The notes: a model not told the origin generated them from the sequence alone. A DNA stretch of 64,000 bases from a virus (IMGVR_UViG_3300047564_002155:104129-168128), one strand, 5' to 3'; shown: positions 17,765 to 30,121, numbered from the stretch's first letter. Translations and numbers: made by a program.

Positions 17765-18327
17765 TTATTATTGATAATTTTATTAAAGACCAAGAGTTTC
17801 TAAACAAGATTAGAAACGACAAAACTTTTTTTGATACAAAAGGATATCATTGGTGGGATGGTTGGTGGAGTTCTCCAGCGGATACTATCAAAAAACAATT
17901 GATTGAGTATATTTGGAGAGATAATTGTCCACCGGACCACATCTATGAATTGTATGGGTTTGAGTATTGGATTGGAACGTATTCAGCATCCGAAGTTGGT
18001 GATGGTAATACTGACAATCTAAATATGCACTTTGATAAAGATGAGTTTTGGTTCAAAGAGACTGGTGAGTTACGAGTCCCTATTATGGGTACGGTTTTCT
18101 ATCCGTGGGAACACGATATTGATGGTGGATACCTTGAAGTATTTTCAAAAGAAGGTGAAGAGCCAGAACGAATTGCTGCCGTTCCAAATAGGTTGATTAT
18201 TTTTCCTGCTGGAAAGTATCCACATAAAGTTACTCAAGTGACTCGTGGAACCAGATACGCAATTGCAATTAATTTGTGGGATGTTCTACCGTCTGGAGTT
18301 TCCAACGGGCAAATGATGTATGAATGA
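17761..18327 (+). CDS. 2OG-Fe(II) oxygenase (prolyl-4-hydroxylase-like)
   Basis: 'HFDKDE' (HxD), 'GGYL', 'PNRLIIF...PHKV...RYAIAINLW'. Confidence 0.85.
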   Translation: MIIIDNFIKDQEFLNKIRNDKTFFDTKGYHWWDGWWSSPADTIKKQLIEYIWRDNCPPDHIYELYGFEYWIGTYSASEVGDGNTDNLNMHFDKDEFWFKETGELRVPIMGTVFYPWEHDIDGGYLEVFSKEGEEPERIAAVPNRLIIFPAGKYPHKVTQVTRGTRYAIAINLWDVLPSGVSNGQMMYE

Positions 18328-18542
18328 TAACATTTAGAATGTCGTTACGAGGAGAATCACACCCACAACATAAACTAACGGAAGACCAAGTAAAATCTAT
18401 TCGTAAGTTGTGGGCTATTGGGCATAGAAACATTCGTGTTCTTGCACGAAACAATGGCGTATCATCCGCTAACATTCGTAAGATTGTAAAAGGTGAAACT
18501 TGGACTCATATTCTTTTTGGTGAATTCAATGACTACCAATGA
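18324..18542 (+). CDS. Small HTH DNA-binding protein (HNH-associated C-terminal-type HTH)
   Basis: 'GESHPQHKLTEDQVKSIR...LARNNGVSSANIRKIVKGETW'. Confidence 0.75.
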   Translation: MITFRMSLRGESHPQHKLTEDQVKSIRKLWAIGHRNIRVLARNNGVSSANIRKIVKGETWTHILFGEFNDYQ

Positions 18543-19300
18543 AAGTAGAAGGTAAGATATATTTTGACCCATCCAAATTTTCAGTAAGACCTATTGCAAA
18601 ATCAGTTGCAAAGGACATTATTGTAAACAACCATTATAGTGGTATTTGGACAAAAGTATCTTATGCTTTAGGGCTTTTTTACAAGTCGGAAACGGAACAC
18701 CAATTTTTTAGTGGAGTCAACGAAGAGTTGGTCGGAGTTGCTACTTATGGAGACCCCATCGGTAGACATTCCGGCCAATCTATTTCGCCACTACTTGACC
18801 GAACTGAAGTCCTTGAACTTACACGACTATTTGTTTTTGATGGCTATGGGTGTAATGTAGAGAGTTGGTTTGTTAGTCAGACCTTTAAGTGGTTAAGGGA
18901 AAACGCCCCACACATTAGAGGGTTGATTTCATACTCTGACCCCAAGGTAGGTCATAAGGGGACGGTTTATATGTCTACCAATTGGATTTATCAAGGTAAT
19001 CGTATTAGACCCAACGACTCGTGGTTATTCAAGTGGGAAGAGGGTGGTGAGTGGACACATTCACGAACATCATATGTAAAGTTTGGAACCAATAATCCAA
19101 AAAAAATCCAAGAGATGACCGCCGCTCCATTTTGGATAAAAAAGGAACTTCGCAAACATCGGTATGTTTATATTTTGGATAATTCAAAAAAAAGTCGTAT
19201 ATTGAAGAACCTAAAATATCCATCATTACCATATCCAACGGAAAACGAGGAGTTCATAGAAGAAATCTACAAATTAGACCCAATTGAAAGAGGACAATAA
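18539..19300 (+). CDS. Mom-like GNAT-fold DNA modification protein (paralog 1)
   Basis: 'NHYS', 'GVATYG.P', 'LELTRL..D', 'N.ESWF', 'ISYSD...GHKGTVY.STNWIYQG', 'KHRY'. Confidence 0.8.
   Translation: MKVEGKIYFDPSKFSVRPIAKSVAKDIIVNNHYSGIWTKVSYALGLFYKSETEHQFFSGVNEELVGVATYGDPIGRHSGQSISPLLDRTEVLELTRLFVFDGYGCNVESWFVSQTFKWLRENAPHIRGLISYSDPKVGHKGTVYMSTNWIYQGNRIRPNDSWLFKWEEGGEWTHSRTSYVKFGTNNPKKIQEMTAAPFWIKKELRKHRYVYILDNSKKSRILKNLKYPSLPYPTENEEFIEEIYKLDPIERGQ
19174..19205 (+). promoter_or_regulatory. Promoter-like motif embedded in the Mom-1 CDS, upstream of Mom-2
   Basis: TTTGGATAATTCAAAAAAAAGTCGTATATTGA is nearly identical to the intergenic copy at 12205. Confidence 0.6.
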
Positions 19301-20078
19301 GACATATGTAGACACTTCACGAGTTACCATTCGTGAAATCAACAAAGCCATCGCAAAGGATATGATTGTGACCTATCACTATTCCCACGCTTGGACTATG
19401 TGTAGATACGCATTGGGTATTTTTTACAAAACCGATGAAAAGGACATTCTTGGAAATGATGAGCAATTGATTGGAGTTGCTGTGTATGGATTTCCTGTTG
19501 GTAGGTCGGCTGTGACCTCTATCATTGATGGGTTGGGTAATGACCAATGTTTGGAGCTAACACGATTGTTCATCCACGATGGTTATGGGTCAAATATTGA
19601 ATCATACGCATTGGGACAAACATTTAAGTGGATGAGGGAACACGCCCCCAACATCAAAATGTTATTGTCGTATTCAGACCCATTCCAAGGTCATTTGGGT
19701 GGTATCTATCGTGCTACCAATTGGTTATTCCAAGACACCAACAAAATCCAATTGATGCCGAACTATGGTATTTCATTAGAAGGTGAAAATGGAACTTATA
19801 TTCACTCACGAACTGTATTTTCAAAGTGGGGCTCGCATAATCTTGAACATTTGAAAACTGAAATTGGTAAGGATGGGTATAAAGAGTTCTGGCGTAGAAA
19901 AGAAATGTCTAAACTACGATACATTCAGATTCTACCAACAAACAAAGGTGAGAAGAAGAAACTGATGAACTCACTTAAACATCCGTGTGAAACTCCACCA
20001 AAGGATATCAGCGACATCTTACCAAAGAGTGAACGATACGAAACTTACGAGCCAGAAAATATGGTTAGTTTTTGGTAG
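19284..20078 (+). CDS. Mom-like GNAT-fold DNA modification protein (paralog 2)
   Basis: Same motif set: 'YHYS', 'GVAVYGFP', 'LELTRL', 'LSYSD..GHLGGIY.ATNW'. Clearly similar to the upstream gene. TTG start. Confidence 0.8.
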   Translation: MKEDNKTYVDTSRVTIREINKAIAKDMIVTYHYSHAWTMCRYALGIFYKTDEKDILGNDEQLIGVAVYGFPVGRSAVTSIIDGLGNDQCLELTRLFIHDGYGSNIESYALGQTFKWMREHAPNIKMLLSYSDPFQGHLGGIYRATNWLFQDTNKIQLMPNYGISLEGENGTYIHSRTVFSKWGSHNLEHLKTEIGKDGYKEFWRRKEMSKLRYIQILPTNKGEKKKLMNSLKHPCETPPKDISDILPKSERYETYEPENMVSFW

Positions 20079-20105
20079 ACTTTGACCAAAAAAATACTAA
20101 ATAAT

Positions 20106-20136
20106 TTTGGCAGTTCAAAAATATTTCGTATATTTG
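20106..20136 (+). promoter_or_regulatory. Bacteroidota sigmaA-type promoter
   Basis: TTTG-N19-TATATTTG. Confidence 0.75.
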
Positions 20137-20208
20137 TATAGTAATGATTGAGAAAGTTCTCCGATTCTCAATTTAGTAAACAGGAGAGTAATTTTAAAAA
20201 CCCCCACG

Positions 20209-20703
20209 ATGAGTAATTATCACAAGCGAGTTCCCTTCCACTCCCTAAACGAAGGTCAAATTGAATATCATCCCATTTTGAGTGGTATTCGGTATCAACA
20301 AAACAAAAAAAGTTTTACAACTTACAATGTTAAAAGTAGGTTAGCTGCTGCAATCTACGAGAACAATGGTAACTGGGATGTTATGTTATGTCCAGCCGGT
20401 GCTAGACCCGATGGTTCAACTAATCATTCTCAAAATCATTCCACGGTAAAGGCTGACGCTCCGTTGTTACTTCAATATCTTAAAATTAAAGGATTTGACA
20501 ACAGAAACCGAAATCTTAAATTTAAAGACCTTCCTTTTTCTTTTGAAAAATTTGAAGACGCATTAGCTTGTTTTCAACTTTATGAAGAAGTGGTTTTAAA
20601 TACACCACTATTGGATTTGGATAAAGTTAATTTACAATCAAATCCTTGGACAAAACGAGATTTTGAAAATTTAAAAAATAATCGTATATTTGTTAACCAA
20701 TAA
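20209..20703 (+). CDS. Hypothetical protein
   Basis: 164 aa ORF behind a promoter; no recognisable motif. Confidence 0.6.
   Translation: MSNYHKRVPFHSLNEGQIEYHPILSGIRYQQNKKSFTTYNVKSRLAAAIYENNGNWDVMLCPAGARPDGSTNHSQNHSTVKADAPLLLQYLKIKGFDNRNRNLKFKDLPFSFEKFEDALACFQLYEEVVLNTPLLDLDKVNLQSNPWTKRDFENLKNNRIFVNQ
20662..20692 (+). promoter_or_regulatory. Bacteroidota sigmaA-type promoter overlapping the ORF end
   Basis: TTTG-N19-TATATTTG before the 20707/20716 start. Confidence 0.65.
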
Positions 20704-20706
20704 AAA

Positions 20707-22503
20707 TTGAAAGATATGAGAAGTTTAAAAGAAGCTTTAGTGTGGGTTGGTGAGAACAAAGCAAAGCCCGCTATTTTCGTTAGAACATTGGGTGTTGTTA
20801 CATTTCAAATGTGTCGTGAGTTGATTGATAGTGGTGCTCTTGATAATGAGGCTAACCGAGATGAGGATTTGGACACTCATAAAAAGTATTGGGGTAAACT
20901 TCATCACTTGATTCGCTTCGTAAGCGGTATCTCCGAAAAGGGTCAGTTATTGGTGTCTATCTTAAAGGACAAAGTGGGTGATGTTGGTTTCATTCGTGAT
21001 AACGGAACATTGTTTTCCTTGTTGTTTGGTAAATACTACGATAGTAGTGTTCTAACAGGTAATGAATGGTTAATGATGTGTGAGGACATTATTAAAGATT
21101 ATGACATCACGAATGAGGATGATAAGTGTGTAATCAATATGATTACTGACTATTTCAACAAGAAGACACCACAGGAACTTGATATTAAGTATTCTTTAAA
21201 ACATTTGATAGATGGCTCTGATGAGTTTCGTGAATTCTTTGACAATAGTCAAATTGCATTTGTTGTTAATTTACACACTGTAAAACAATTTGAGAAGGAT
21301 ATGATTAATTGTAACCGACAACCAAATCCGTGGTTGGCTTACAACTACTATATGACTCCTTTGAAACGAACGGATGAGTACAAAACTTATTTTTGTGGTG
21401 ACCAACTTTTAGAATATTTTACTAATAAGGTAGGTGCTGATGAATTTACACGAGGTGGGTTGATGTCGGGTCATAAAGGATATGCCGAGAAACACAAAGT
21501 AGCAAAGATGATACCAATCCTTCAGGCGTACATTGGTTCTCACTATTGTGATACCATTGATGAGTTTAAAAAGTTTAACGATATGGTCGTTAGTTTTGAA
21601 AACGGAACAACCGATGGTAAGGAAACCGAATACTGGCAATCTATGTTTAAGCGTGTCATTTCGGAAGTAAGTTATGGTGAGTTGACCAAGTGGTACGAAA
21701 GTACATATGTGAAGGTGTTTGAATCGGATGATTGGAAGACAATCACCACTACCATTAACAAGATTGTAACCAACAATCTAAATGGGAAGCGAATAACGGC
21801 TATGGAAGACCTTCACATTAAAAAGTATCATACAGGAATTTTGTTATTCACCTTTGTTTTACACTTCAAACGAACCAAGAAGTCAGTTGGGATATCAAAG
21901 TTAACATCCAAAGTAGTCAATGAGTATTGTAAACTGTTGAATGGTAATGTTGACCACGAAGGTAATCAAATTAGTGTATGGGAGTATTTTGGAACACAAT
22001 CTTCGGTTTACTCATCAACGAGTGCCAATGTTAGATTTGAAAAGTTGTTCAAATATGTTTTTAAGAATGTTGAATCTAACTTGAAAGCTGGCTCTAAAGA
22101 CCGTGACCATCAATCCGAATATCGTGAGCAGTCACTAAAACGAATTTCAACCTTCCTTGAGTCCGAGGGAATGCCTCAACGACTGAAACTATACCCACTA
22201 TCTACCGATGTGTTGAGTGTTGTAAACTTCAAGACTGGCGAGGGTGTCCAATGGTTACATAAATCACCCAACTCAACCGGGGGTGATGCTAAAGATGGGT
22301 TTTTGGGTATGACTGATGATAACCTAACGGGTAATCAAAAATACAAGAATTGGAATTGTACACCAAACGAGTATTGGGAGATGTTGGTTGAACATAATGA
22401 GAAGATGTCTGGCAATTTGAGTCCAATTGAAAAACGGATTGTCGCTTCATCAATTAATACAATTTACCAAATCCTTGAAACGGGTTTAAATTTTGGAGCA
22501 TAA
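20707..22503 (+). CDS. Hypothetical protein, possibly a divergent DUF262/ParB-like + HNH-like (GmrSD-type) protein
   Basis: 598 aa (alternative ATG at 20716). N-terminal 'ANR..W..LI...RDNG..F...NR' and C-terminal 'WLHKSPNSTGG...DN' only loosely resemble these domains. Confidence 0.4.
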   Translation: MKDMRSLKEALVWVGENKAKPAIFVRTLGVVTFQMCRELIDSGALDNEANRDEDLDTHKKYWGKLHHLIRFVSGISEKGQLLVSILKDKVGDVGFIRDNGTLFSLLFGKYYDSSVLTGNEWLMMCEDIIKDYDITNEDDKCVINMITDYFNKKTPQELDIKYSLKHLIDGSDEFREFFDNSQIAFVVNLHTVKQFEKDMINCNRQPNPWLAYNYYMTPLKRTDEYKTYFCGDQLLEYFTNKVGADEFTRGGLMSGHKGYAEKHKVAKMIPILQAYIGSHYCDTIDEFKKFNDMVVSFENGTTDGKETEYWQSMFKRVISEVSYGELTKWYESTYVKVFESDDWKTITTTINKIVTNNLNGKRITAMEDLHIKKYHTGILLFTFVLHFKRTKKSVGISKLTSKVVNEYCKLLNGNVDHEGNQISVWEYFGTQSSVYSSTSANVRFEKLFKYVFKNVESNLKAGSKDRDHQSEYREQSLKRISTFLESEGMPQRLKLYPLSTDVLSVVNFKTGEGVQWLHKSPNSTGGDAKDGFLGMTDDNLTGNQKYKNWNCTPNEYWEMLVEHNEKMSGNLSPIEKRIVASSINTIYQILETGLNFGA

Positions 22504-22504
22504 T

Positions 22505-23623
22505 ATGAGAGTTTTAGTTATACCAAATTACACCAACTTTGGGGCTGTTAAAGACATCAATAGGGATTCGTTCCTATTGGTGTTCAAGTCCTTTTTAGAT
22601 AATACGCAAATTGGTAAAGAGTGGGAGTGGATTCTACCTTATCCTGATTTAGATAATCATCCTGGTATCATCAACGCATTTGAATACCCGAATGTTCAGT
22701 TGGTAAAAATGGATGGATTGGATTCATTTCCACCCAAAATGAGGGTAGATTATCCTCACAAGTTTTTCAATAGAATCATTGAAAAATACAAAGGTGAATT
22801 CAATTTGATTTGGAGTCATTTGCCTGAATGGACTAATGAGTTTAAAGTAACTCGTATCTATAATAAAACTCAACCTATTATTGGATATTGTCATTGGTGG
22901 GAAATCAAAGATAATGGTGCAAGAGATGATAATTCATTTTGGCGTAATGTCAAGGGTATGTTAGAAATGAAAGTGTGTGGTGTAAACTCACAATGGGTAA
23001 AAGATTTAGTAATCAAACGAGCATCTGAATCATTTCAACCACATATCATTGAGCAATTAGAACAAATTATTCAACCTTGGTATCTTGGATGTGATTCCGC
23101 AACTCCAACATCTACATACGAACCTAAAACTATTTTGTATAATCATAGATGGGGTGTGTATACGGGTTCGGAATTCTTTTTTGAGGTAATGGATGAATTA
23201 TGGAAAACTCGTAAAGATTTCCAAGTGTGGACTACCTTAAAAGAAATGGGTAAACCATATACCAAATATATTGGTCACGCTGATAGAGATGTATATATGA
23301 ATCAAATGTCAAAAGCACATTTTGGTGTAGGTACGTTCCAAGGATATTCCGCTTGGTCTATGTCAGCAACTGATGGTTTATCTCGTGGAGTTCCATATTT
23401 ACTACCAAATGATTTTTGTTATCCTGAAATGGTAGGCACTGATTACCCTTTACTTTATAATGGTAAAGAAGAATTTAAACAAATGGTTGTAAAACTATTG
23501 GATGGTGATATTGAACGACCTGATGTAACTCATATTGCAGAATCCTTGCTTTGGGAACACCAACTAAAAAGTTGGAATGTAGAAGAAAACTTTGTTAATA
23601 CCGCACGAAAAGATTTTAATTAA
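22505..23623 (+). CDS. GT-B glycosyltransferase, candidate DNA glycosyltransferase
   Basis: 'IWSHLPEW', 'GYCHWWE', 'LYNHR...YTG', 'WSMSATDGLSRGVPYLLP...YPEM'. Its stop overlaps the start of the DNA polymerase B gene. Confidence 0.75.
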   Translation: MRVLVIPNYTNFGAVKDINRDSFLLVFKSFLDNTQIGKEWEWILPYPDLDNHPGIINAFEYPNVQLVKMDGLDSFPPKMRVDYPHKFFNRIIEKYKGEFNLIWSHLPEWTNEFKVTRIYNKTQPIIGYCHWWEIKDNGARDDNSFWRNVKGMLEMKVCGVNSQWVKDLVIKRASESFQPHIIEQLEQIIQPWYLGCDSATPTSTYEPKTILYNHRWGVYTGSEFFFEVMDELWKTRKDFQVWTTLKEMGKPYTKYIGHADRDVYMNQMSKAHFGVGTFQGYSAWSMSATDGLSRGVPYLLPNDFCYPEMVGTDYPLLYNGKEEFKQMVVKLLDGDIERPDVTHIAESLLWEHQLKSWNVEENFVNTARKDFN

Positions 23624-26142
23624 TGTATCAAAATGTATACTATGAAAAGGAAAATGGTATCATCCATTGCTGGGATGACCAAAAAGGTTATTTTACAAGC
23701 AAGTACCGTAGATACGCATATGTTAGAGATGGGAATGGTTCTTTTACTTCTATTCACGGAGAGCGTCTTAAAAAGATAAACTTTTGGAAGCAAGAGGATA
23801 ATCTTAAACTTTACGAAAGTGATGTAAACGAAATGACTCGTTTTCTGATTGACCAATATGGTGATTCAGATGAGGTATCTACCGGTCATACTATTCTAAC
23901 CTTTGATATTGAGGTTGAGATGAATAGTGGTTTGCCGGACATTGATAAAGCAGGTAACGCAATCACTTCAATTGCAGGTCACGATTCAGTCACCAACGAC
24001 TATTTCGTATATGTTGTATCGGACAATTATGTTGACAAAACCATCAAAGGAGCTCAAGTTCGTTCGTTTAAAACTGAAGCTGACCTACTTGAATCATTTC
24101 TAAACAAATGGCAAGAAATCAACCCAACAATCGTTACGGGTTGGAACATTGACTACTTTGATATTACTTACCTATACAATCGTTTAAAGAATGTGTTGGG
24201 TGAGAGAATGGCTAGTAAACTTTCTCCTATTGGTAAGATTGGATACAACAAATATCGTAATCGTTATATTATCGCGGGTGTAAGTTGTTTGGACTACCTT
24301 GCTCTTTACAAGAACTTTACCTACCAAGAATTCCCTAACTACCGATTGGATACCATTGCTAATATCGTATTGGGTAGGGGTAAAATTGAATACAAGGGTA
24401 ATCTTGACCAATTGTTCCGAGATGATTTGGAAAAGTTCATTGAGTATAACTTGGTGGATGTGGAGTTGGTTGTTGAAATGGATAGAAAACTTCAGTTCAT
24501 TGAATTGGCTCAAGCGATTTGTCACGCAGGGCACGTATTTTATGAAGATTTCCTATTCTCATCAAAGTGGTTGGAAGGTGCTATCCTAACTTTCTTGCGT
24601 AGAAGTAATCGTGTAGCGCCAGACAAACCACGAAGAGCGGAAAAGAACGAAGATGGGTCTGATGGTGAGGGTAAGTTCACAGGTGCATATGTAAAAGAAC
24701 CCAAACCCGGTCTTTACAAGTGGGTATATGACTTGGACTTGACTTCGCTGTATCCATCTATTATTATGACCTTGAATGTGTCGCCAGAAACAAAGATTGG
24801 TAAACTCAAATCATTCTCTTCGGAAGATTATATGAAGAACAAGATTGAGTCGTATTCAATCGTGGATGATAATGGTCGTGAGTTTCCACCGCTAACTCGT
24901 GATGAATTTCAAAATCTAATCACGGAATCCAATTATTCAGTATCATCAAATGGTGTATTGTACACGCAAGATAGGGTTGGTGTAATACCTGAAATCTTGA
25001 ATGTTTGGTTTGACAAGCGAGTTGAGTATAAGGACTTAATGAAAAAATATGGTAAAGAGGGTAATAACGAACTTTACAAGTTTTACTCTCAACGCCAGTT
25101 GGTTCAAAAAATTATGTTGAACTCCCTTTATGGTGTATTGGGTCTACCATCATTCCGATTCTATGATGTGGATAACGCAGAAGCTACCACAATTACGGGT
25201 CAAACTGTAATCAAGACCACGGAGATGATTGCTAACCAATACTACAAAAGTATCATTGGTAAAGAGGATGACTACAATGTATATACCGATACTGACTCCG
25301 TATTCTATCAGGCGGCTCCGCTTGTAAAAGCAAGAAACCCACAAATTGATGTGGAGTCTGATGAACAAATGGTTCCAGCGATTCTATCAGTTGCTCAAGA
25401 GGTTCAAGCCCACATCAATAAGGTCTACGACACGATGTCTAAAAAGTTATTCAATGTGGACTTTCACCGATTTGATATCAAACAAGAAACCATCGCAAAA
25501 GGTGGATTTTGGGTATCAAAGAAGAGATACGCACAATGGATTATCAACGACAATACTGTTCCTTGTGATAAGATGGATGTTAAGGGATTGGATGTTCGTA
25601 GGTCATCATTCCCAACCTACTTTAAGAAGGTGATGGAGACTGTTTTGTTGGATATTCTAAAAGGTGTTGATAAATCTATAATTGATGATAAACTTATCAA
25701 ATTCAAAGAAGAGATGTCAGACCAAAACTTTACGGATATTGCAAAGAACTCTGCTGTGAAGGATATGTCCAAGTATGTAAAGAATCGTAAGGAGTACGCA
25801 TTGGGTGAATTTGAGAAAGGAACCCCAGCGCACGTTAAAGCTGCTATAACCTATAATAGGTTGTTGAAACATTATAACGCTCCTTACAAATATGAACCTA
25901 TGAAGGATGGTGATAAGATTAAGTGGGTTTACTTAAAAAAGAATCCACTTGGATTGGAAGCTACCGCATTCACAGGTCATAACGACCCCCCACAAATCAA
26001 TCAGTTTATTCAACAATACATTGATGTGGACTTGATTTGGGAAAAGGAGTTGGAGAACAAAATCACCGACTTCTATGACGCAATGAATTGGGACAAACCA
26101 AATCCCAATCTTCTAAAAGCATCGCAATTTTTTGGATTTTGA
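23623..26142 (+). CDS. Family B DNA polymerase (T4 gp43-like)
   Basis: Exonuclease motifs 'FDIEV', 'GWNIDYFD', 'YNLVD'; polymerase motifs 'DLTSLYPSI', 'KIMLNSLYG', 'YTDTDS', 'KKRY'. Confidence 0.96.
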   Translation: MYQNVYYEKENGIIHCWDDQKGYFTSKYRRYAYVRDGNGSFTSIHGERLKKINFWKQEDNLKLYESDVNEMTRFLIDQYGDSDEVSTGHTILTFDIEVEMNSGLPDIDKAGNAITSIAGHDSVTNDYFVYVVSDNYVDKTIKGAQVRSFKTEADLLESFLNKWQEINPTIVTGWNIDYFDITYLYNRLKNVLGERMASKLSPIGKIGYNKYRNRYIIAGVSCLDYLALYKNFTYQEFPNYRLDTIANIVLGRGKIEYKGNLDQLFRDDLEKFIEYNLVDVELVVEMDRKLQFIELAQAICHAGHVFYEDFLFSSKWLEGAILTFLRRSNRVAPDKPRRAEKNEDGSDGEGKFTGAYVKEPKPGLYKWVYDLDLTSLYPSIIMTLNVSPETKIGKLKSFSSEDYMKNKIESYSIVDDNGREFPPLTRDEFQNLITESNYSVSSNGVLYTQDRVGVIPEILNVWFDKRVEYKDLMKKYGKEGNNELYKFYSQRQLVQKIMLNSLYGVLGLPSFRFYDVDNAEATTITGQTVIKTTEMIANQYYKSIIGKEDDYNVYTDTDSVFYQAAPLVKARNPQIDVESDEQMVPAILSVAQEVQAHINKVYDTMSKKLFNVDFHRFDIKQETIAKGGFWVSKKRYAQWIINDNTVPCDKMDVKGLDVRRSSFPTYFKKVMETVLLDILKGVDKSIIDDKLIKFKEEMSDQNFTDIAKNSAVKDMSKYVKNRKEYALGEFEKGTPAHVKAAITYNRLLKHYNAPYKYEPMKDGDKIKWVYLKKNPLGLEATAFTGHNDPPQINQFIQQYIDVDLIWEKELENKITDFYDAMNWDKPNPNLLKASQFFGF

Positions 26143-26174
26143 TTTGGATAATTAAAATTAATTTAGTATATTTG
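26143..26174 (+). promoter_or_regulatory. Bacteroidota sigmaA-type promoter
   Basis: TTTG-N20-TATATTTG, 4 nt before ATG 26179. Confidence 0.75.
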
Positions 26175-26178
26175 TATT

Positions 26179-26382
26179 ATGAATATTGAACAAGCAAAAC
26201 AAGTATTAAAGGAGAATGGTTACTATGTAGATAATCTCTGGCACACCGATGATGTCCACCAATTTGGTGATATTTCAGAGGATGGTGCATATGATGTGTT
26301 AAATTCAGTTTTACAAAATGCGTATACCATTGAAAAAATCAATGAAATGCTGCACGATGAATTCTACGAGCGAACAAATTAA
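26179..26382 (+). CDS. Small hypothetical protein
   Basis: 67 aa, acidic, 'GYYVDNLWHTDDV'. Confidence 0.65.
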   Translation: MNIEQAKQVLKENGYYVDNLWHTDDVHQFGDISEDGAYDVLNSVLQNAYTIEKINEMLHDEFYERTN

Positions 26383-26993
26383 TGAGTGTAACCAACTACA
26401 TAGTAGAATTATGTCCACGAAGTGAGATTGTAAACTTTGTGGAAACTCATCACTATTCAAAAAATATGAATGGATTACACATTTCATATTGTTTTAAGTT
26501 GATGGATGGTGATACTATGATTGGTGCTATGGTTTATGGGTCTTTGGGTATGGTTGGGGTTGCTGAAAAGTATACCTCCAACCCATCAAAGATTTTAGAG
26601 TTGAAACGACTCGTTTGTATTGATGATACTCCAAAAAATACCGAATCGTATTTTATAGGTTGGACTCTTCGGTGGTTACAACGAAATACTGATTTGGAAA
26701 TGATAATCTCATATGCTGATAAAACATTTGGACACGAAGGTGTGGTTTATAAAGCTACAAACTTTGAGTGTATGGGTGAAACATCAGCTGGAAGGGTTAT
26801 TATGTGGAATGGTCGTAGGTATCACGACAAAACTTTAAGAAACAAACACAATGGGAAACTAAAGCCCGTTGCTATTGAATTGAAAAACGCATTGGATGAT
26901 GGAAGTGCTCAGTATGTGGAAACTCTTACAAAGAACATTTACATTTACCGATTCAAAAAAAGAAAACAAAAAATCCAGCAATGGTTTGGATAA
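26382..26993 (+). CDS. Mom-like GNAT-fold DNA modification protein (paralog 3)
   Basis: 'HHYS', 'IGAMVYG', 'LELKRLVCIDDTPKNTESYFIG..LRWL', 'ISYAD..GHEGVVYKATNF..G'. Confidence 0.82.
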   Translation: MSVTNYIVELCPRSEIVNFVETHHYSKNMNGLHISYCFKLMDGDTMIGAMVYGSLGMVGVAEKYTSNPSKILELKRLVCIDDTPKNTESYFIGWTLRWLQRNTDLEMIISYADKTFGHEGVVYKATNFECMGETSAGRVIMWNGRRYHDKTLRNKHNGKLKPVAIELKNALDDGSAQYVETLTKNIYIYRFKKRKQKIQQWFG

Positions 26994-27016
26994 TTCAAAA
27001 TTATTTCGTATATTTG
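26985..27016 (+). promoter_or_regulatory. Bacteroidota sigmaA-type promoter
   Basis: TTTGGATAATTCAAAATTATTTCGTATATTTG. Confidence 0.78.
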
Positions 27017-27038
27017 TCTAAACTAAAAATTAAAAAGT

Positions 27039-27740
27039 ATGAAGAAAAGTTCATTTGAGGGATTTGTCTCTCGTTATAATCTTGGCGGTGAAGTTGAATC
27101 CGTTAAGGTAGTCTCAACTGATGAAGGACTTTCGGTTCGTTTCATCTCTGATGACAAAACCCTTTTGGGTGTTGTAGAAAGTGAAGATAAGTCATTCCCT
27201 AATGGTGAATTTGGTATCTACACTACTTCACAACTAAAAGGTTTGTTGGGTGTTCTTGACGCAAGTGTTGATGTAAAATCTAATGAAACTTCATTGGTAT
27301 TTTCAGACACTAAAACTTCGGTAAACTATGTGTTGGCTGAATTGTCAGTAATTCCAGCAGTTCCAGAACTCAAGCAACTCCCCAACTTTAATGCTACCAT
27401 CACTTTGGATGAAGCATTCATTGGGACATTTATCAAATCAAAAGGTGCTTTGAGTGATTCGGATACCTTTACCTTTACTTGTACTGGTGAATCAAACGCA
27501 GGTAAGATTGTTTTGGGTTATTCTAAAATCAACTCTAACCGAATCTCTATCAATGTAGATTGTGTTTGTGAAAGTGATGTTCAACCCATTTCATTCTCTG
27601 CTAAATACTTGAAGGAAATCTTGAATGCAAATCGTGGTGCTAAAGCATCTTCTATGAAGGTCTCATCACAAGGTCTTGCTTCAGTTTCTTTTGAACACGA
27701 AGGATACAAATCATCTTACTACCTCGTAGAAGTAAAGTAA
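27039..27740 (+). CDS. Sliding clamp (T4 gp45/PCNA-like)
   Basis: 233 aa with 'EFGIY..SQL..LL', a PCNA-like 'FSAKYLKEIL' and 'YYL' C-terminus. Lies between PolB and the clamp loader. Confidence 0.75.
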   Translation: MKKSSFEGFVSRYNLGGEVESVKVVSTDEGLSVRFISDDKTLLGVVESEDKSFPNGEFGIYTTSQLKGLLGVLDASVDVKSNETSLVFSDTKTSVNYVLAELSVIPAVPELKQLPNFNATITLDEAFIGTFIKSKGALSDSDTFTFTCTGESNAGKIVLGYSKINSNRISINVDCVCESDVQPISFSAKYLKEILNANRGAKASSMKVSSQGLASVSFEHEGYKSSYYLVEVK

Positions 27741-28927
27741 TGTTTTGGGATACTGAACCAGCGAAACCTGCGTTTGACTATGATGTAGAAAAGGGTAAGT
27801 TCATTGAAAATATGGACTACCTTTCTTCTATGTCCGTAGAAGAACAAACACTTTACAAAAAGTGGCAGGAGTGGAACTATGACTTGGCTACCTCTATGAA
27901 GAGAAAAGCAGGTCTGGCTCTTCACTATGATGCTCTTTGGATGCCGAAAGACATTCAAAATAAGGAACAAACAATCAAAGAAATTGAAGACCTTGAACCT
28001 TATGTAGAAATTGTTGATGACCCAAAAGAATCTACTCGCTGGACTGAAATCCGAAAACTAATTCATACGATGTCTTTTGATGCTAATCCCGGTCGTAATG
28101 TAAAGATTTACATTAAGGATAGGGTTAGTGGTAAGATACTTGGAATGATTTCCTTGGCTTCAGATGTCACATCATTGGGAGTTCGTGATACCTACATTGG
28201 GTGGACCCAAGACAACAAATACAAAGATGGTAAGTTGAATCATACTACTATCGCATCCACAATTGTCTGCACCCAACCTTTGGGGTACAATTTCTTGGGT
28301 GGTAAGTTGATTGCTTGTATGGCTACATCGGAGGTAGTTCGTAAACATTGGAAAGAGAAATACGGACAAACTTTGATTGCAGTCGGAACCACTTCTTTGT
28401 ATGGTATTCACTCTCAATATAATGGTATCCCCCACTTCAAAACCTTGGGAGAATCCGCAGGTAAGGTAGCTACAAAGCCAGATGATTCAGTTTACGAACC
28501 CTGGCACCATTGGATTAAAGAAAACAAATCCGAAGAGTACGCTATTCAAACTGCTGAAAAAGAAGGTGTAGATGGACCTGCTACCGGAGTAAAGCAGAAA
28601 GTCATCAATATGATTTTCAAAGAACTTGGGTTGAAAGGTTCTCACTACCAACACGGATTCAAACGAGGTGTGTATTTCGCACAAATGTATGAGAATGGTA
28701 ATGAGTTTCTCCGTAATGAGATTACCGAAGACCAACTGATAATGAAGGACAAGTTTGTTCAGAGCGATGAATACACAATGAAGTGGTGGAAACCAAAGGC
28801 AATCAAACGATACGAAAAACTACACGAAGAAGGTCGTATCAAACCAGAATCATTATTTTACCTTGATATCATTGGTATGTCGTGGGAAGATTGTAAAGAA
28901 AAATATCTAAAAGAAGTAGGAAGATGA
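27740..28927 (+). CDS. DUF4338 (Druantia DruA-like) protein
   Basis: 'PGRNVKIYIKD..SGKILG.I.LASD...RD.YIGW...LN...QPLGYNFLGGKLIA...TTSLYG..SQYN'. Confidence 0.75.
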   Translation: MFWDTEPAKPAFDYDVEKGKFIENMDYLSSMSVEEQTLYKKWQEWNYDLATSMKRKAGLALHYDALWMPKDIQNKEQTIKEIEDLEPYVEIVDDPKESTRWTEIRKLIHTMSFDANPGRNVKIYIKDRVSGKILGMISLASDVTSLGVRDTYIGWTQDNKYKDGKLNHTTIASTIVCTQPLGYNFLGGKLIACMATSEVVRKHWKEKYGQTLIAVGTTSLYGIHSQYNGIPHFKTLGESAGKVATKPDDSVYEPWHHWIKENKSEEYAIQTAEKEGVDGPATGVKQKVINMIFKELGLKGSHYQHGFKRGVYFAQMYENGNEFLRNEITEDQLIMKDKFVQSDEYTMKWWKPKAIKRYEKLHEEGRIKPESLFYLDIIGMSWEDCKEKYLKEVGR

Positions 28928-29838
28928 GTAATTCATTATGGGTTGAAAAATACCGACCAGATACATTAGAAGGATATGTAGGAAACGAACACATCCTTGA
29001 AAAGGTAAAGATTTACATTCAAAATGAAGATGTCCCACACCTTTTATTGTATGGACAAGCCGGTACGGGTAAAACCACATTGGCTAAAATCATTACCAAT
29101 CAGATTGATTGTGATTTGATGTATATTAACGCTTCTGATGAAAACTCCGTAGACGCAGTTCGTGATAAGATTCGTGGATTCGCATCATCTATGGGTTTTA
29201 GAAAGTGGAAGGTTATTATCTTGGATGAGGCTGATTATTTGTCTCAAAACGCCCAAGCGGCTCTTCGTAATTTGATGGAGACATTTTCAGCATCTACTCG
29301 TTTTATTCTAACTTGTAATTTTGTTGAAAAGGTAATTGACCCTATCCAATCTCGTTGCCAAACATTTGCAATTACCCCACCATCTAAAAAGGATGTTGCA
29401 AAACGATTGAATGATATTCTAACAACCGAAGGTATTGAATTTGAAATGTCAGACCTTGCTGTGCTTGTTAATAGTGGATATCCGGACATTCGTAGAGTTC
29501 TAAACGCAGCTCAACGACAGGTCATCAACGGCAAATTGGTGATTGACAAACAATCAACTCTTGAAGCAAACTACACCGAAAAAGTGGTACAAGAATTGAT
29601 GTCTAATAATGATGCAAAAACAAAGTTCACCAATGTCAGACAAATTATTGCTGATTCAGGTGTTAAAAGCTTTGAACCTTTGTATAGAACCCTTTACGAT
29701 AGAGTAGATGACTATGGGAAAGGTAAAGTCGGACAAACCATCTTAAACATCGCGGATGGTCAGTATAAAGACGCTATGGTAGTTGATAAAGAAATCAATG
29801 TAATGGCGATGATGTTAAATATTATAACAAGTATCTAA
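28924..29838 (+). CDS. Clamp loader large subunit (gp44/RFC AAA+)
   Basis: 'LWVEKYRP', 'GQAGTGKTT', 'INASDE', 'ILDEAD', 'AQAALR', 'IQSRC', 'PDIRR'. Confidence 0.95.
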   Translation: MSNSLWVEKYRPDTLEGYVGNEHILEKVKIYIQNEDVPHLLLYGQAGTGKTTLAKIITNQIDCDLMYINASDENSVDAVRDKIRGFASSMGFRKWKVIILDEADYLSQNAQAALRNLMETFSASTRFILTCNFVEKVIDPIQSRCQTFAITPPSKKDVAKRLNDILTTEGIEFEMSDLAVLVNSGYPDIRRVLNAAQRQVINGKLVIDKQSTLEANYTEKVVQELMSNNDAKTKFTNVRQIIADSGVKSFEPLYRTLYDRVDDYGKGKVGQTILNIADGQYKDAMVVDKEINVMAMMLNIITSI

Positions 29839-29839
29839 A

Positions 29840-30121
29840 ATGGCAAAAGGTAAAGTAATTCCAATGGGTGGTAAACAACAACCAACTCAACAAGCACCAA
29901 AAATCAATGTTGACCCCTTTAAACTCAAAACAGTAACTTGTCCTAATTGTGAAGGTATTTTCTTCACGGAAGTGACTATGTTTAAAGAAGTTCCAGCGGT
30001 AATGTCTCCGAATGGTCAACAATCAATGCTACCAATCCCTGTGGTTGTATGTAATGAATGTGGGACTGTTCATCCAAAGTTCACTCCAAAAGAGTTCTTT
30101 GAAGGTGGTGAAGAAAAGTAA
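29840..30121 (+). CDS. Zinc-ribbon protein
   Basis: CPNC...CNEC. Confidence 0.7.
   Translation: MAKGKVIPMGGKQQPTQQAPKINVDPFKLKTVTCPNCEGIFFTEVTMFKEVPAVMSPNGQQSMLPIPVVVCNECGTVHPKFTPKEFFEGGEEK

What the first reader, a model, noticed from the sequence alone, without database searches (positions are those of the whole stretch)
18539..28927. Four Mom/DruA-type GNAT proteins woven into the replisome operon: candidate multi-enzyme DNA hypermodification system
Seen: three Mom-like paralogs (18539, 19284, 26382) and a DUF4338/DruA-like gene inserted between the clamp and clamp loader. Nearby are a glycosyltransferase abutting PolB, a 2OG-Fe(II) oxygenase, glutamine synthetase, MazG and Nmad1. Known: phage Mu Mom is a GNAT-fold enzyme that carbamoylmethylates adenine against restriction, normally as a single gene. 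Inference: several paralogs with different sequence or base specificities modify nascent DNA. The stand-alone DruA-like gene here suggests DUF4338 is itself a DNA-modifying enzyme.
Basis: partly seen in the sequence, partly recalled or inferred. Interest (0 to 1): 0.75.

Follow-up and report, generated by a model that had tools for sequence, protein, structure and literature searches.

The report
Clamp-tagged Mom and DruA enzymes in phage replisome
An uncultured T4-like water phage keeps three intact copies of the Mu "Mom" DNA-adenine-modifying enzyme and a fourth, Mom-shaped enzyme of the unexplained bacterial DruA family among its DNA-replication genes; two Moms end in the same short tag as the polymerase, so they probably ride the sliding clamp and mark new DNA.

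Summary
The window holds three Mom-family genes (18539-19300, 19284-20078, 26382-26993) and one DruA/DUF4338-family gene (27740-28927, between clamp and clamp loader). These are the only copies in the 168-kb virus record.

- **The Moms look active.** All three keep most of the residues shown to matter in Mu Mom (H58, Y59, R111, S124, D149, Y159), but not R151.
- **DNA-directed fusions.** Homologues are fused to ParB-N or uracil-DNA-glycosylase domains.
- **Co-occurrence.** In 38 polymerase-anchored relatives, Moms and DruA are either both present (23) or both absent (15). That is four concordant gain/loss contrasts, too few for significance.
- **Shared end tag.** Of about 182 genes, only PolB, Mom2 and Mom3 end in an F/W pair (QFFGF, SFW, QWFG). 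The tails are lineage-specific additions.

Best reading: replication-coupled DNA modification by several GNATs that blocks restriction.

Glutamine synthetase, the 2OG oxygenase, MazG and Nmad1 are not shown to take part. The glycosyltransferase is real but optional.

The scan found this same module in at least 12 other genomes.

The parts
18324..18542 (+). 72-aa helix-turn-helix protein (HTH72), 4-nt overlap with Mom1. A conserved neighbour, not dependent on the Moms.
   Evidence: The sequence resembles the DNA-binding module attached to HNH homing endonucleases. It lies upstream of Mom1 in all relatives, but it is also kept in relatives that lack the Moms.
18539..19300 (+). Mom1: Mom-family GNAT, 253 aa, with a conserved acidic C-terminal extension (EEFIEEI.KL.PIE) and no aromatic end.
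   Evidence: Pfam Mom E 3.8e-43. It keeps Mu H58, Y59, R111, S124, D149 and Y159. Orthologues are 61-93% identical.
19284..20078 (+). Mom2: Mom-family GNAT, 264 aa, TTG start, 17-nt overlap with Mom1.
   Evidence: Pfam Mom E 5.3e-46. 42% identical to Mom1. Catalytic residues are kept.
20007..20075 (+). Mom2 C-terminal extension (residues 242-264): a variable linker ending in an invariant FW. Candidate clamp-binding tail.
   Evidence: All 20 distinct orthologue tails end in FW after a divergent linker. The nearest cultured homologue (Polaribacter phage P12002L) aligns only up to residue 241. It is one of only 3 of about 182 genes with an F/W-pair end.
22493..23623 (+). GT-B (GT4-like) glycosyltransferase, 376 aa, 1-nt overlap with PolB. 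An optional companion.
   Evidence: AlphaFold model pLDDT 83.5. Foldseek E 1e-12 to 1e-9 to GT4 enzymes (7qsg, MshA, SenB, PimB'). Protein-atlas features 0.97-0.98 to GT4. It often lies next to DruA-like genes in relatives, but it is absent upstream of PolB in 7 Mom+DruA+ loci.
23623..26142 (+). Family B DNA polymerase (T4 gp43 type). It ends in KASQFFGF (26116-26139).
   Evidence: Pfam DNA_pol_B E 1.7e-41; phrog_262 E 1.6e-191. T4 gp43 ends in KASLDFLFG, the known clamp-binding end (PMC2988020).
26179..26382 (+). 67-aa acidic protein (u67), 1-nt overlap with Mom3. Seen only in loci that carry Mom3.
   Evidence: No family hit. It is present with Mom3 in L009 and L015, and was not detected in any locus without Mom3.
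26382..26993 (+). Mom3: Mom-family GNAT of a different clade, 203 aa. An accessory gene between PolB and the clamp. It ends in KRKQKIQQWFG (26958-26990).
   Evidence: Pfam Mom E 9.1e-34. Only about 33% identical to Mom1 over 94 residues. Present in only 5 of 34 DruA-anchored long loci and 6 of 23 Mom-bearing PolB-anchored loci. All orthologues of 72% identity or more end in WF(G/N/K/V/GF). Homologues at about 60% identity and the cyanophage Moms stop right after the last strand.
27039..27740 (+). Sliding clamp (T4 gp45 type).
   Evidence: phrog_223, DNA polymerase processivity factor, E 8.9e-10. It holds the same syntenic position in all relatives.
27740..28927 (+). DruA/DUF4338-family GNAT, 395 aa, overlapping the clamp stop and the clamp-loader start.
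28924..29838 (+). Clamp loader large subunit (T4 gp44 type).
   Evidence: phrog_168 E 4e-81; Pfam AAA and DNA_pol3_delta2.

Best explanation
This is a replication-coupled DNA base-modification module built from several GNAT-fold enzymes. It lies in an abundant, uncultured lineage of aquatic T4-like phages.

**Shown**
- There are three intact Mom-family enzymes and one DruA-family GNAT.
- In a sister clade the Mom1-Mom2 pair and the DruA-like gene are contiguous.
- In polymerase-anchored relatives the Moms and DruA are present together or absent together.
- Mom2 and Mom3 carry lineage-specific C-terminal extensions ending in an F/W pair. The only other gene in the genome with such an end is the polymerase.

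**Inferred**
- By analogy with Mu Mom, each Mom takes an aminoacyl group (glycine in Mu) from a charged host or phage tRNA. It puts the group on the N6 of adenine in duplex DNA, where it rearranges to a bulky adduct that blocks restriction enzymes.
- The three Moms read different sequence contexts through their divergent helical insertions.
- Mom2 and Mom3 dock on the sliding clamp through their tails, as T4 gp43, gp33 and gp55 do, so DNA is marked just behind the fork.
- The DruA-like enzyme is a fourth DNA-directed acyltransferase. It has a different active-site motif set (Q-P-x-G-x-N-x-x-G-G-K, T-T-S-L-Y-G, R-G-V-Y-F), so its donor may be an acyl-CoA rather than a tRNA. Its target is unknown.
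- The glycosyltransferase is an optional extra. GS, the 2OG oxygenase, MazG and Nmad1 are neighbours, not shown parts.
For: **Family calls.**

**Catalytic residues.** H58, Y59, R111, S124, D149 and Y159 of Mu Mom are invariant across 24 Mom sequences, including Mom1/2/3 orthologues. Their role is documented in PMC13219725.

**DNA-oriented fusions.** DruA-like homologues are fused to ParB_N (three cases) and to UDG.

**Gene order.** HTH72-Mom1-Mom2-DruA are contiguous in the clade with about 53% PolB identity.

**Co-occurrence.** 23 loci have both, 15 have neither, none is discordant. Four of four independent contrasts on the PolB tree agree.

**Tails.** Only PolB, Mom2 and Mom3, of about 182 genes, end in [FW][FW](G|GF). 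FW is invariant in Mom2 orthologues and WF in Mom3 orthologues, behind variable linkers. Outgroup Moms lack the tails. T4 gp43 ends in KASLDFLFG and this PolB in KASQFFGF. T4 clamp ligands use such ends on variable linkers (PMC2988020).

**Recurring position.** DruA-like genes sit inside the clamp/clamp-loader operon in distant cyanophages too: S-SM2 and S-SCSM2R, between gp44 and gp62.

**Druantia link.** A preprint reports that Druantia type I, which has no methylase domain, gives a new 'm6A' call in host DNA (10.1101/2024.04.14.589459).
Against: - No modified base has been measured. Everything about the chemistry is by analogy.
- Mu R151, essential in Mu Mom, is K, F or T in the three Moms.
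- There is no sequence-profile link between DruA-like proteins and Mom (hhalign probability 2.6%).
- Foldseek ranks p300 and other GNATs above Mom, all weakly, and ranks a phage Mom only 22nd in BFVD.
- The Z margin over ordinary GNATs is only 1.0-1.2.
- With four contrasts the co-occurrence cannot reach significance (p 0.125).
- DruA-like genes stand without any detected Mom in most cyanophage carriers, so the two are not obligate partners.
- The DruA-like protein, Mom1 and the GT have no aromatic tail in this genome.
- Clamp binding was not tested, because no complex prediction was available.
- No gp55 homologue was found for comparing tails.
- The phage tRNA-Gly(GCC) is explained by codon usage: GGT is 62% of Gly codons.
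Confidence: 0.55

Rival explanations
1. The Moms are ordinary free-standing, post-replicative anti-restriction enzymes, as in Mu. Having several copies only broadens motif coverage. The aromatic ends of Mom2 and Mom3 serve another purpose, such as folding, dimer contacts or binding another partner, and have nothing to do with the clamp.
For: Mu Mom acts post-replicatively on dsDNA with no replisome partner (PMC13219725). Cyanophage Moms outside the replication cluster have no tail. Mom1, always present, has no aromatic end. Clamp binding was not tested.
Against: The tails are lineage-specific additions, conserved at the very end behind variable linkers. The only other gene in the genome with such an end is the polymerase. 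That is the architecture of the known T4 clamp ligands. Mom3 sits directly next to the clamp gene.
Confidence: 0.25
2. The DruA-like GNAT does not modify DNA. It acylates a protein (a replisome or host protein), a charged tRNA or a small molecule. Its link to the Moms is only shared cargo history.
For: Most GNATs act on proteins or small molecules. The conserved Q-P-x-G...G-G-K stretch after strand 4 resembles the acyl-CoA-binding motif A. There is no sequence relationship to Mom. Foldseek's best PDB hits are p300/CBP and other acetyltransferases. Many cyanophages carry it without a Mom.
Confidence: 0.3
3. One linear multi-step hypermodification pathway. In it the glutamine synthetase, 2OG oxygenase, MazG, Nmad1, glycosyltransferase and the four GNATs each add a step to one elaborate base.
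For: All these genes lie within about 17 kb on one strand. The GT is frequently adjacent to DruA-like genes in relatives. In T4, the modification genes 42 and beta-gt also lie beside gene 43.
Against: The GS is a full-length GlnII type (412 bits) and was not found near the Moms in any relative. The 2OG oxygenase and HTH72 stay in Mom-less relatives. The GT is missing in 7 Mom+DruA+ loci. There is no ThyA-type hydroxymethylase, ThyX or TET/JBP in the genome. The MazG and Nmad1 Pfam scores are below the cut-offs.
Confidence: 0.08
4. The phage DruA-like protein is a decoy, or dominant-negative copy, of the host's Druantia type I DruA. It would be used to disarm that defence system.
For: Phages do capture homologues of defence components. 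The protein matches the PADLOC DruA model over most of its length.
Against: The family is broad in phages (1097 representative homologues) and strongly conserved at catalytic-looking positions. It sits in replisome operons of phages of cyanobacteria and SAR11. It is gained and lost with Mom genes. A decoy would not need conserved GNAT motifs.
Confidence: 0.05

Closest known systems
Bacteriophage Mu Mom (Pfam PF25680; PDB 8bv8; Silva et al., Nat Commun 2026, PMC13219725)
   Same: Mom1, Mom2 and Mom3 are members of the same family. They keep H58, Y59, R111, S124, D149, Y159 and the helical insertion region. The expected role is the same: a bulky N6-adenine adduct that blocks restriction.
   Different: There are three divergent copies instead of one, whereas every deposited phage record with a Mom has a single place. 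The genes sit among early replication genes rather than as a late, Com-controlled gene, and there is no Com-type zinc finger. R151 is not kept. Two copies have C-terminal extensions with polymerase-like aromatic ends. The module is coupled to a DruA-family GNAT.
DruA (DUF4338, PF14236) of the Druantia type I defence system
   Same: The Pfam and PADLOC DruA models match over most of the domain. The fold is GNAT, as the Aravind laboratory noted for DUF4338 (PMC10853773).
   Different: There are no druB-E genes. The gene is in a phage replisome operon. The N- and C-terminal helical parts (residues 1-80 and 330-395) lie largely outside the Pfam model. The biochemical role of DruA itself is unknown. 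DruA-like genes were noted in six Synechococcus phages, without a function (Phold preprint).
C-terminal sliding-clamp-binding ends of T4 gp43, gp33 and gp55 (Geiduschek and Kassavetis review, PMC2988020)
   Same: A short hydrophobic or aromatic motif sits at the very C-terminus behind a variable linker. This phage's polymerase end, KASQFFGF, parallels T4's KASLDFLFG. Mom2 (..SFW) and Mom3 (..QWFG) share the feature.
   Different: The carriers are DNA-modifying enzymes, not polymerase or transcription factors. Binding is inferred, not shown. Coupling of a DNA-marking enzyme to a clamp is known to me only from eukaryotic DNMT1-PCNA (my own knowledge, not checked here).
T4 genes 42 and beta-gt beside gene 43
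   Same: DNA-modification genes, including a GT-B glycosyltransferase, lie next to the polymerase and the clamp/clamp-loader genes.
   Different: T4 modifies the dNTP pool (hmdC) and then glucosylates DNA. This genome has no ThyA-type hydroxymethylase, ThyX or TET/JBP. Its GT resembles GT4 enzymes rather than the T4 glucosyltransferases.

Membership tests
Mom family (PF25680) | Match to the family profile above the curated cut-off | tested here: met
   147.9, 157.3 and 117.3 bits against a cut-off of 27.1. A profile of the paralogues finds Mu Mom 8bv8 at E 3.6e-60.
Mom family (PF25680) | Residues shown to be needed in Mu Mom: R111, S124, D149 (plus H58, Y59, Y159) | tested here: met
   Invariant in the 4-sequence alignment with Mu Mom and in 24 sequences. 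Their roles are given in PMC13219725.
Mom family (PF25680) | R151, essential in Mu Mom | tested here: not met
   The aligned position is K (Mom1), F (Mom2) and T (Mom3). Most family members instead have G-H two to three residues later.
Mom family (PF25680) | Helical (HTH-like) insertion before the last strand, essential in Mu Mom | tested here: met
   All three align through Mu residues 175-209, with G179, H183, T186 and G193 invariant and otherwise divergent sequence. This rests on the alignment; no structure of the paralogues was predicted.
Mom family (PF25680) | Gly-tRNA(Gly)-dependent modification of adenine N6 in dsDNA | not testable with these tools
   Needs expression and nucleoside LC-MS/MS.
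DruA / DUF4338 (PF14236; PADLOC DruA) | Match to the family profiles | tested here: met
   Pfam 87.6 bits (cut-off 27), model positions 35-296 of 297. PADLOC PDLC00002 80.3 bits, positions 89-371 of 407.
Druantia type I system | DruA encoded together with DruB-DruE (the large helicase) | tested here: not met
   Its neighbours are the clamp and clamp loader, in a phage genome. No PADLOC hit for the neighbouring unknown genes. It is a DruA-family protein, not a Druantia system.
GNAT superfamily | GNAT fold | tested here: met
GNAT superfamily | Acyl-CoA-binding motif A (Q/R-x-x-G-x-G/A) after strand 4 | tested here: inconclusive
   The DruA-like proteins have a conserved Q179-P-L-G182-Y-N ... G187-G188-K189. 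This is similar to the motif but not canonical. The Moms lack it.
T4-type sliding-clamp ligands | Short hydrophobic or aromatic motif at the extreme C-terminus behind a variable linker, like the phage's own polymerase | tested here: met
   Mom2 ends in FW and Mom3 in WF(G). Both ends are conserved across orthologues behind variable linkers (Mom2) or a basic linker (Mom3). Only PolB shares such an end, making 3 of about 182 genes.
T4-type sliding-clamp ligands | Physical binding to the clamp | not testable with these tools
   No complex prediction or binding assay was available.

The most novel reading that the evidence does not exclude
DUF4338/DruA is a DNA-base acyl- or aminoacyl-transferase related in shape and job to Mom. 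In Druantia type I it would be the missing writer of the methylase-less adenine mark that flags self DNA. T4-like aquatic phages would have captured it, together with two or three Moms, into a clamp-tethered machine that decorates DNA as it leaves the replication fork.
Probability: 0.3. Interest if true: 0.85.

Novelty: new variant of a known kind. Interest (0 to 1): 0.68.

Why it matters
Mom chemistry was solved only in 2026, and only for a single stand-alone enzyme. Here an abundant, uncultured phage lineage has thousands of metagenomic homologues. In it the same enzyme type is multiplied, wired into the replisome, apparently tagged for the sliding clamp, and inherited together with a DruA-family GNAT.

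If the tails do bind the clamp, this would, to my knowledge, be the first phage example of a DNA-hypermodifying enzyme coupled physically to replication.

If the DruA-like enzyme modifies DNA, that would give a concrete, testable function to DruA. It is the unexplained first gene of Druantia type I. It would also explain the reported adenine-modification signal from that methylase-less system.

Both ideas can be tested with simple expression, binding and LC-MS experiments.

Tried and rejected
**Comparisons that gave nothing**
- Profile-profile comparison of 48 DruA-like against 24 Mom sequences gave no signal. BLASTP of Mom3 against DruA gave nothing either.
- Sequence search of the DruA-like protein against PDB gave nothing.
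- Foldseek against PDB gave only weak GNAT hits, and Mom was not among those listed.

**Ideas dropped**
- HTH72 as a Com-like partner of Mom: it is a helix-turn-helix, not a zinc finger, and it is kept in Mom-less relatives.
- Glutamine synthetase as a modification enzyme: it is a GlnII type and is not conserved near the Moms.
- A T4-like hydroxymethyl-pyrimidine route for the GT: no ThyA or ThyX hit. The TET/JBP search also found nothing, but it rang in no control genome, so that absence is weak.
- A GmrSD-like reading of the 598-aa ORF, from another note: no Pfam, PHROG, PADLOC, NCBIfam or atlas support.
- Phage tRNA-Gly as a dedicated glycine donor: the genome has tRNA-Gly(GCC), but GGT makes up 62% of Gly codons, so codon usage explains it.

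**Scans that were uninformative**
- T4 late-promoter motif TATAAATA: 7 matches, all on the minus strand, at the chance level.
- The sigma-70 and terminator scan told nothing.
- A gp55 homologue for tail comparison was not found by BLASTP.

- The ParB-DruA fusion gave no viral locus.

Full report
**What the window is.** The window is bases 104129-168128 of a 168,128-bp IMG/VR virus record judged 94% complete. Almost all genes lie on the plus strand. The stretch 13.6-31 kb is a T4-type nucleotide-metabolism and replication cluster. In order it holds:

- ribonucleotide reductase small subunit, MazG-like protein and ribonucleotide reductase large subunit;
- a GlnII-type glutamine synthetase and a 2OG-Fe(II) oxygenase;
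- a 72-aa HTH protein, Mom1 and Mom2;
- two orphan ORFs (164 and 598 aa);
- a 376-aa protein, family B polymerase, a 67-aa protein and Mom3;
- sliding clamp, DruA-like protein and clamp loader;
- a 93-aa zinc-ribbon protein, the clamp-loader A subunit and a weak Nmad1-like protein.

The nearest deposited phage is Microcystis phage Mel-JY01 (PolB 48.5% identical). It has no Mom or DruA gene in its polymerase-clamp-loader stretch.

Three genes match Pfam Mom and one matches Pfam DruA, all far above the cut-offs. PHROGs and PADLOC agree. These are the only copies in the genome. Mom1 and Mom2 are 42% identical. Mom3 shares about 33% identity with Mom1 over 94 residues and belongs to another clade. 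Among deposited phages, every record that matches Mom2 (331) or Mom3 (313) does so at one place only. Three copies is therefore unusual.

**The Moms look active.**
- Mu Mom is now known to transfer glycine from Gly-tRNA(Gly) to N6 of adenine in dsDNA. The adduct then rearranges on the base to N6-carbamoylmethyl-adenine.
- R111, S124, D149 and R151 are needed for activity. H58, Y59 and Y159 are important. A helical insertion (residues 175-209) is essential (PMC13219725).
- Aligned with Mu Mom (taken from NC_000929), all three paralogues keep H58, Y59, R111, S124, D149 and Y159. They also align through the insertion.
- The same positions are invariant across 24 sequences that include orthologues from related contigs.
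- R151 is not kept (K, F and T).
- The insertion, proposed to contact the major groove, is the most divergent part. That fits different target motifs, but this is inference.

**The DruA-like protein.**
- It has 1097 representative homologues at E of 0.001 or better in a library of 1.84 billion representatives.
- An AlphaFold model built on 48 diverse homologues is very confident (pLDDT 94.7, pTM 0.91).
- Foldseek against PDB gives only weak acetyltransferase hits.
- The model has four helices between the last two core strands (residues 249-303). Mom has its special insertion at the same topological place. I infer this from the order of secondary-structure elements, not from a residue-level superposition.
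- Against a closer link, profile-profile comparison with the Mom alignment is null. The conserved motifs also differ: the DruA-like proteins have P-G-R, S-D, R-D-x-x-I-G-W, Q-P-x-G-x-N-x-x-G-G-K, T-T-S-L-Y-G-x-x-S-Q-Y and R-G-V-Y-F.
- The protein is therefore a GNAT whose nearest solved relative in shape is Mom. It is not a Mom-family member.
- DUF4338 had already been called a GNAT (PMC10853773). DruA-like genes had been noticed in six Synechococcus phages, without a function. One GenBank record even labels such a gene 'methylcarbamoylase mom'.

**Evidence that the DruA-like enzyme works on DNA and with the Moms.**
- Longer homologues carry N-terminal ParB_N domains (three cases), a uracil-DNA-glycosylase-superfamily domain or DUF3102.
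- In 80 IMG/VR loci found with the DruA-like protein, the near clade has it between clamp and loader. In the clade with about 53% PolB identity it follows Mom2 directly, in the order HTH72-Mom1-Mom2-DruA-GT-PolB.
- In a neutral sample anchored on PolB (38 loci with a full 10 kb on both sides), 23 have two or three Moms and DruA, 15 have neither, and none is discordant.
- On a PolB tree each trait changes four times, and the four independent contrasts are all concordant. The sign test gives p = 0.125, which four contrasts cannot improve.
- In the cultured cyanophages S-SM2 and S-SCSM2R, a 26-28% identical homologue sits between gp44 and gp62. Two SAR11 phages have one in the recombination and replication region.
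- At least 14 of the 25 Synechococcus phage records that carry the gene show no Mom. The enzyme can therefore work alone.
- A preprint reports that Druantia type I, which has no methylase domain, causes a new 'm6A' call in host DNA (10.1101/2024.04.14.589459; cited also in 10.64898/2026.05.12.722862). A Mom-like adenine adduct written by DruA would explain this. That link is my inference.

**The tails.** I followed a lead from another first-reader note and compared C-termini.
- PolB orthologues end in QFFGF, KFFSF or KFFAF. T4 gp43 ends in KASLDFLFG and this PolB in KASQFFGF.
- T4 gp43, gp33 and gp55 bind the clamp through such ends on variable linkers (PMC2988020).
- All Mom2 orthologues end in FW after a highly variable stretch of about 20 residues. 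The closest cultured homologue aligns only up to residue 241 of 264.
- All Mom3 orthologues of 72% identity or more end in K(I/L)xxWF plus one or two residues. Homologues at about 60% identity, and the Moms of cyanophages S-SSM7 and DSL-LC03, stop right after the last strand.
- Across about 182 genes of the genome, only PolB, Mom2 and Mom3 end in [FW][FW](G|GF).
- Mom1 has a different, conserved acidic extension. The DruA-like protein ends in YLKEVGR.
- I infer that Mom2 and Mom3 dock on the clamp. This was not tested.

**What does not belong.**
- The 376-aa protein next to PolB is a real GT-B/GT4 glycosyltransferase, and it is often adjacent to DruA-like genes. It is absent upstream of PolB in seven Mom+DruA+ loci.
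- The genome has no ThyA-type hydroxymethylase, ThyX or TET/JBP (the TET/JBP search rang in no control, so that absence is weak).
- The glutamine synthetase is a GlnII type and was not seen near the Moms in any relative.
- The 2OG oxygenase and HTH72 remain in relatives that lack the Moms.
- The MazG and Nmad1 Pfam scores are below the cut-offs.
- The ten phage tRNAs, which lie outside the window, include tRNA-Gly(GCC), but codon usage explains it.

**Verdict.** The most likely reading is a replication-coupled, multi-GNAT DNA-modification module (confidence 0.55): Mom-type aminoacyl-tRNA-dependent adenine modification at several motifs, two enzymes tethered to the clamp, and a DruA-family GNAT of unknown donor and target that is co-inherited with them. 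It is a new variant of a known kind.

**Earlier scan results.** The scan has already met the same module in at least 12 other genomes, and follow-up reports there reached similar readings.

Noticed in passing
window 26179-26382: A 67-aa, strongly acidic protein overlaps the Mom3 start by 1 nt. In relatives it was detected only in loci that carry Mom3 (L009, L015). It matches no family. It may be a partner or regulator of Mom3, or a small anti-restriction protein.
   Followed up: partly
loci L130-L134, L140 (PolB 77-78% identical relatives): In relatives that lack the Moms and DruA, the slot between clamp and clamp loader holds a glycosyltransferase-like gene ending in NKFF, another aromatic end. 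The clamp-loader slot seems to be a hot spot for tail-tagged cargo.
   Followed up: no
locus L009 4060-4779; locus L036 2227-2934: One relative has a second, short (239 aa) DruA-family gene between Mom2 and the GT. Another has three Moms in tandem, with an extra 235-aa copy between Mom1 and Mom2. The GNAT set is expanding and contracting within the lineage.
   Followed up: no
window 20209-20703 and 20707-22503: Two orphan ORFs (164 and 598 aa) lie between Mom2 and the glycosyltransferase. They have no hit in Pfam, PHROGs, PADLOC or NCBIfam, and the 598-aa ORF also has no hit in the protein atlas. Among the DruA-anchored long loci, the 598-aa ORF recurs only in L032 (63% identity).
   Followed up: partly
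window 29840-30121: A 93-aa protein with two CxxC pairs (zinc-ribbon-like) lies between the two clamp-loader subunits. It is conserved in relatives (33-78% identity) and ends in KEFFEGGEEK.
   Followed up: no
BFVD hits of model m25c5f8ed902d: DUF4338-like domains appear inside very large proteins (469-1260 aa) of giant viruses (Faunusvirus, Yasminevirus, Dasosvirus), with Foldseek E values from 6e-9 to 3e-20. The family therefore reaches into eukaryotic giant viruses.
   Followed up: no
genome C1:11511-13229 (outside the window): An array of ten tRNA genes. Eight of them have U at the wobble position; Tyr(GTA) and Gly(GCC) are the exceptions. GGT is 62% of glycine codons, so the Gly(GCC) choice fits codon usage.
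   Followed up: yes
locus L106 1924-2481 (Synechococcus phage DSL-LC03): In this cultured cyanophage the single Mom gene overlaps an upstream gene annotated as a type II restriction endonuclease. This fits the Mom-plus-nuclease pairs described for jumbo phages (PMC7824862).
   Followed up: no
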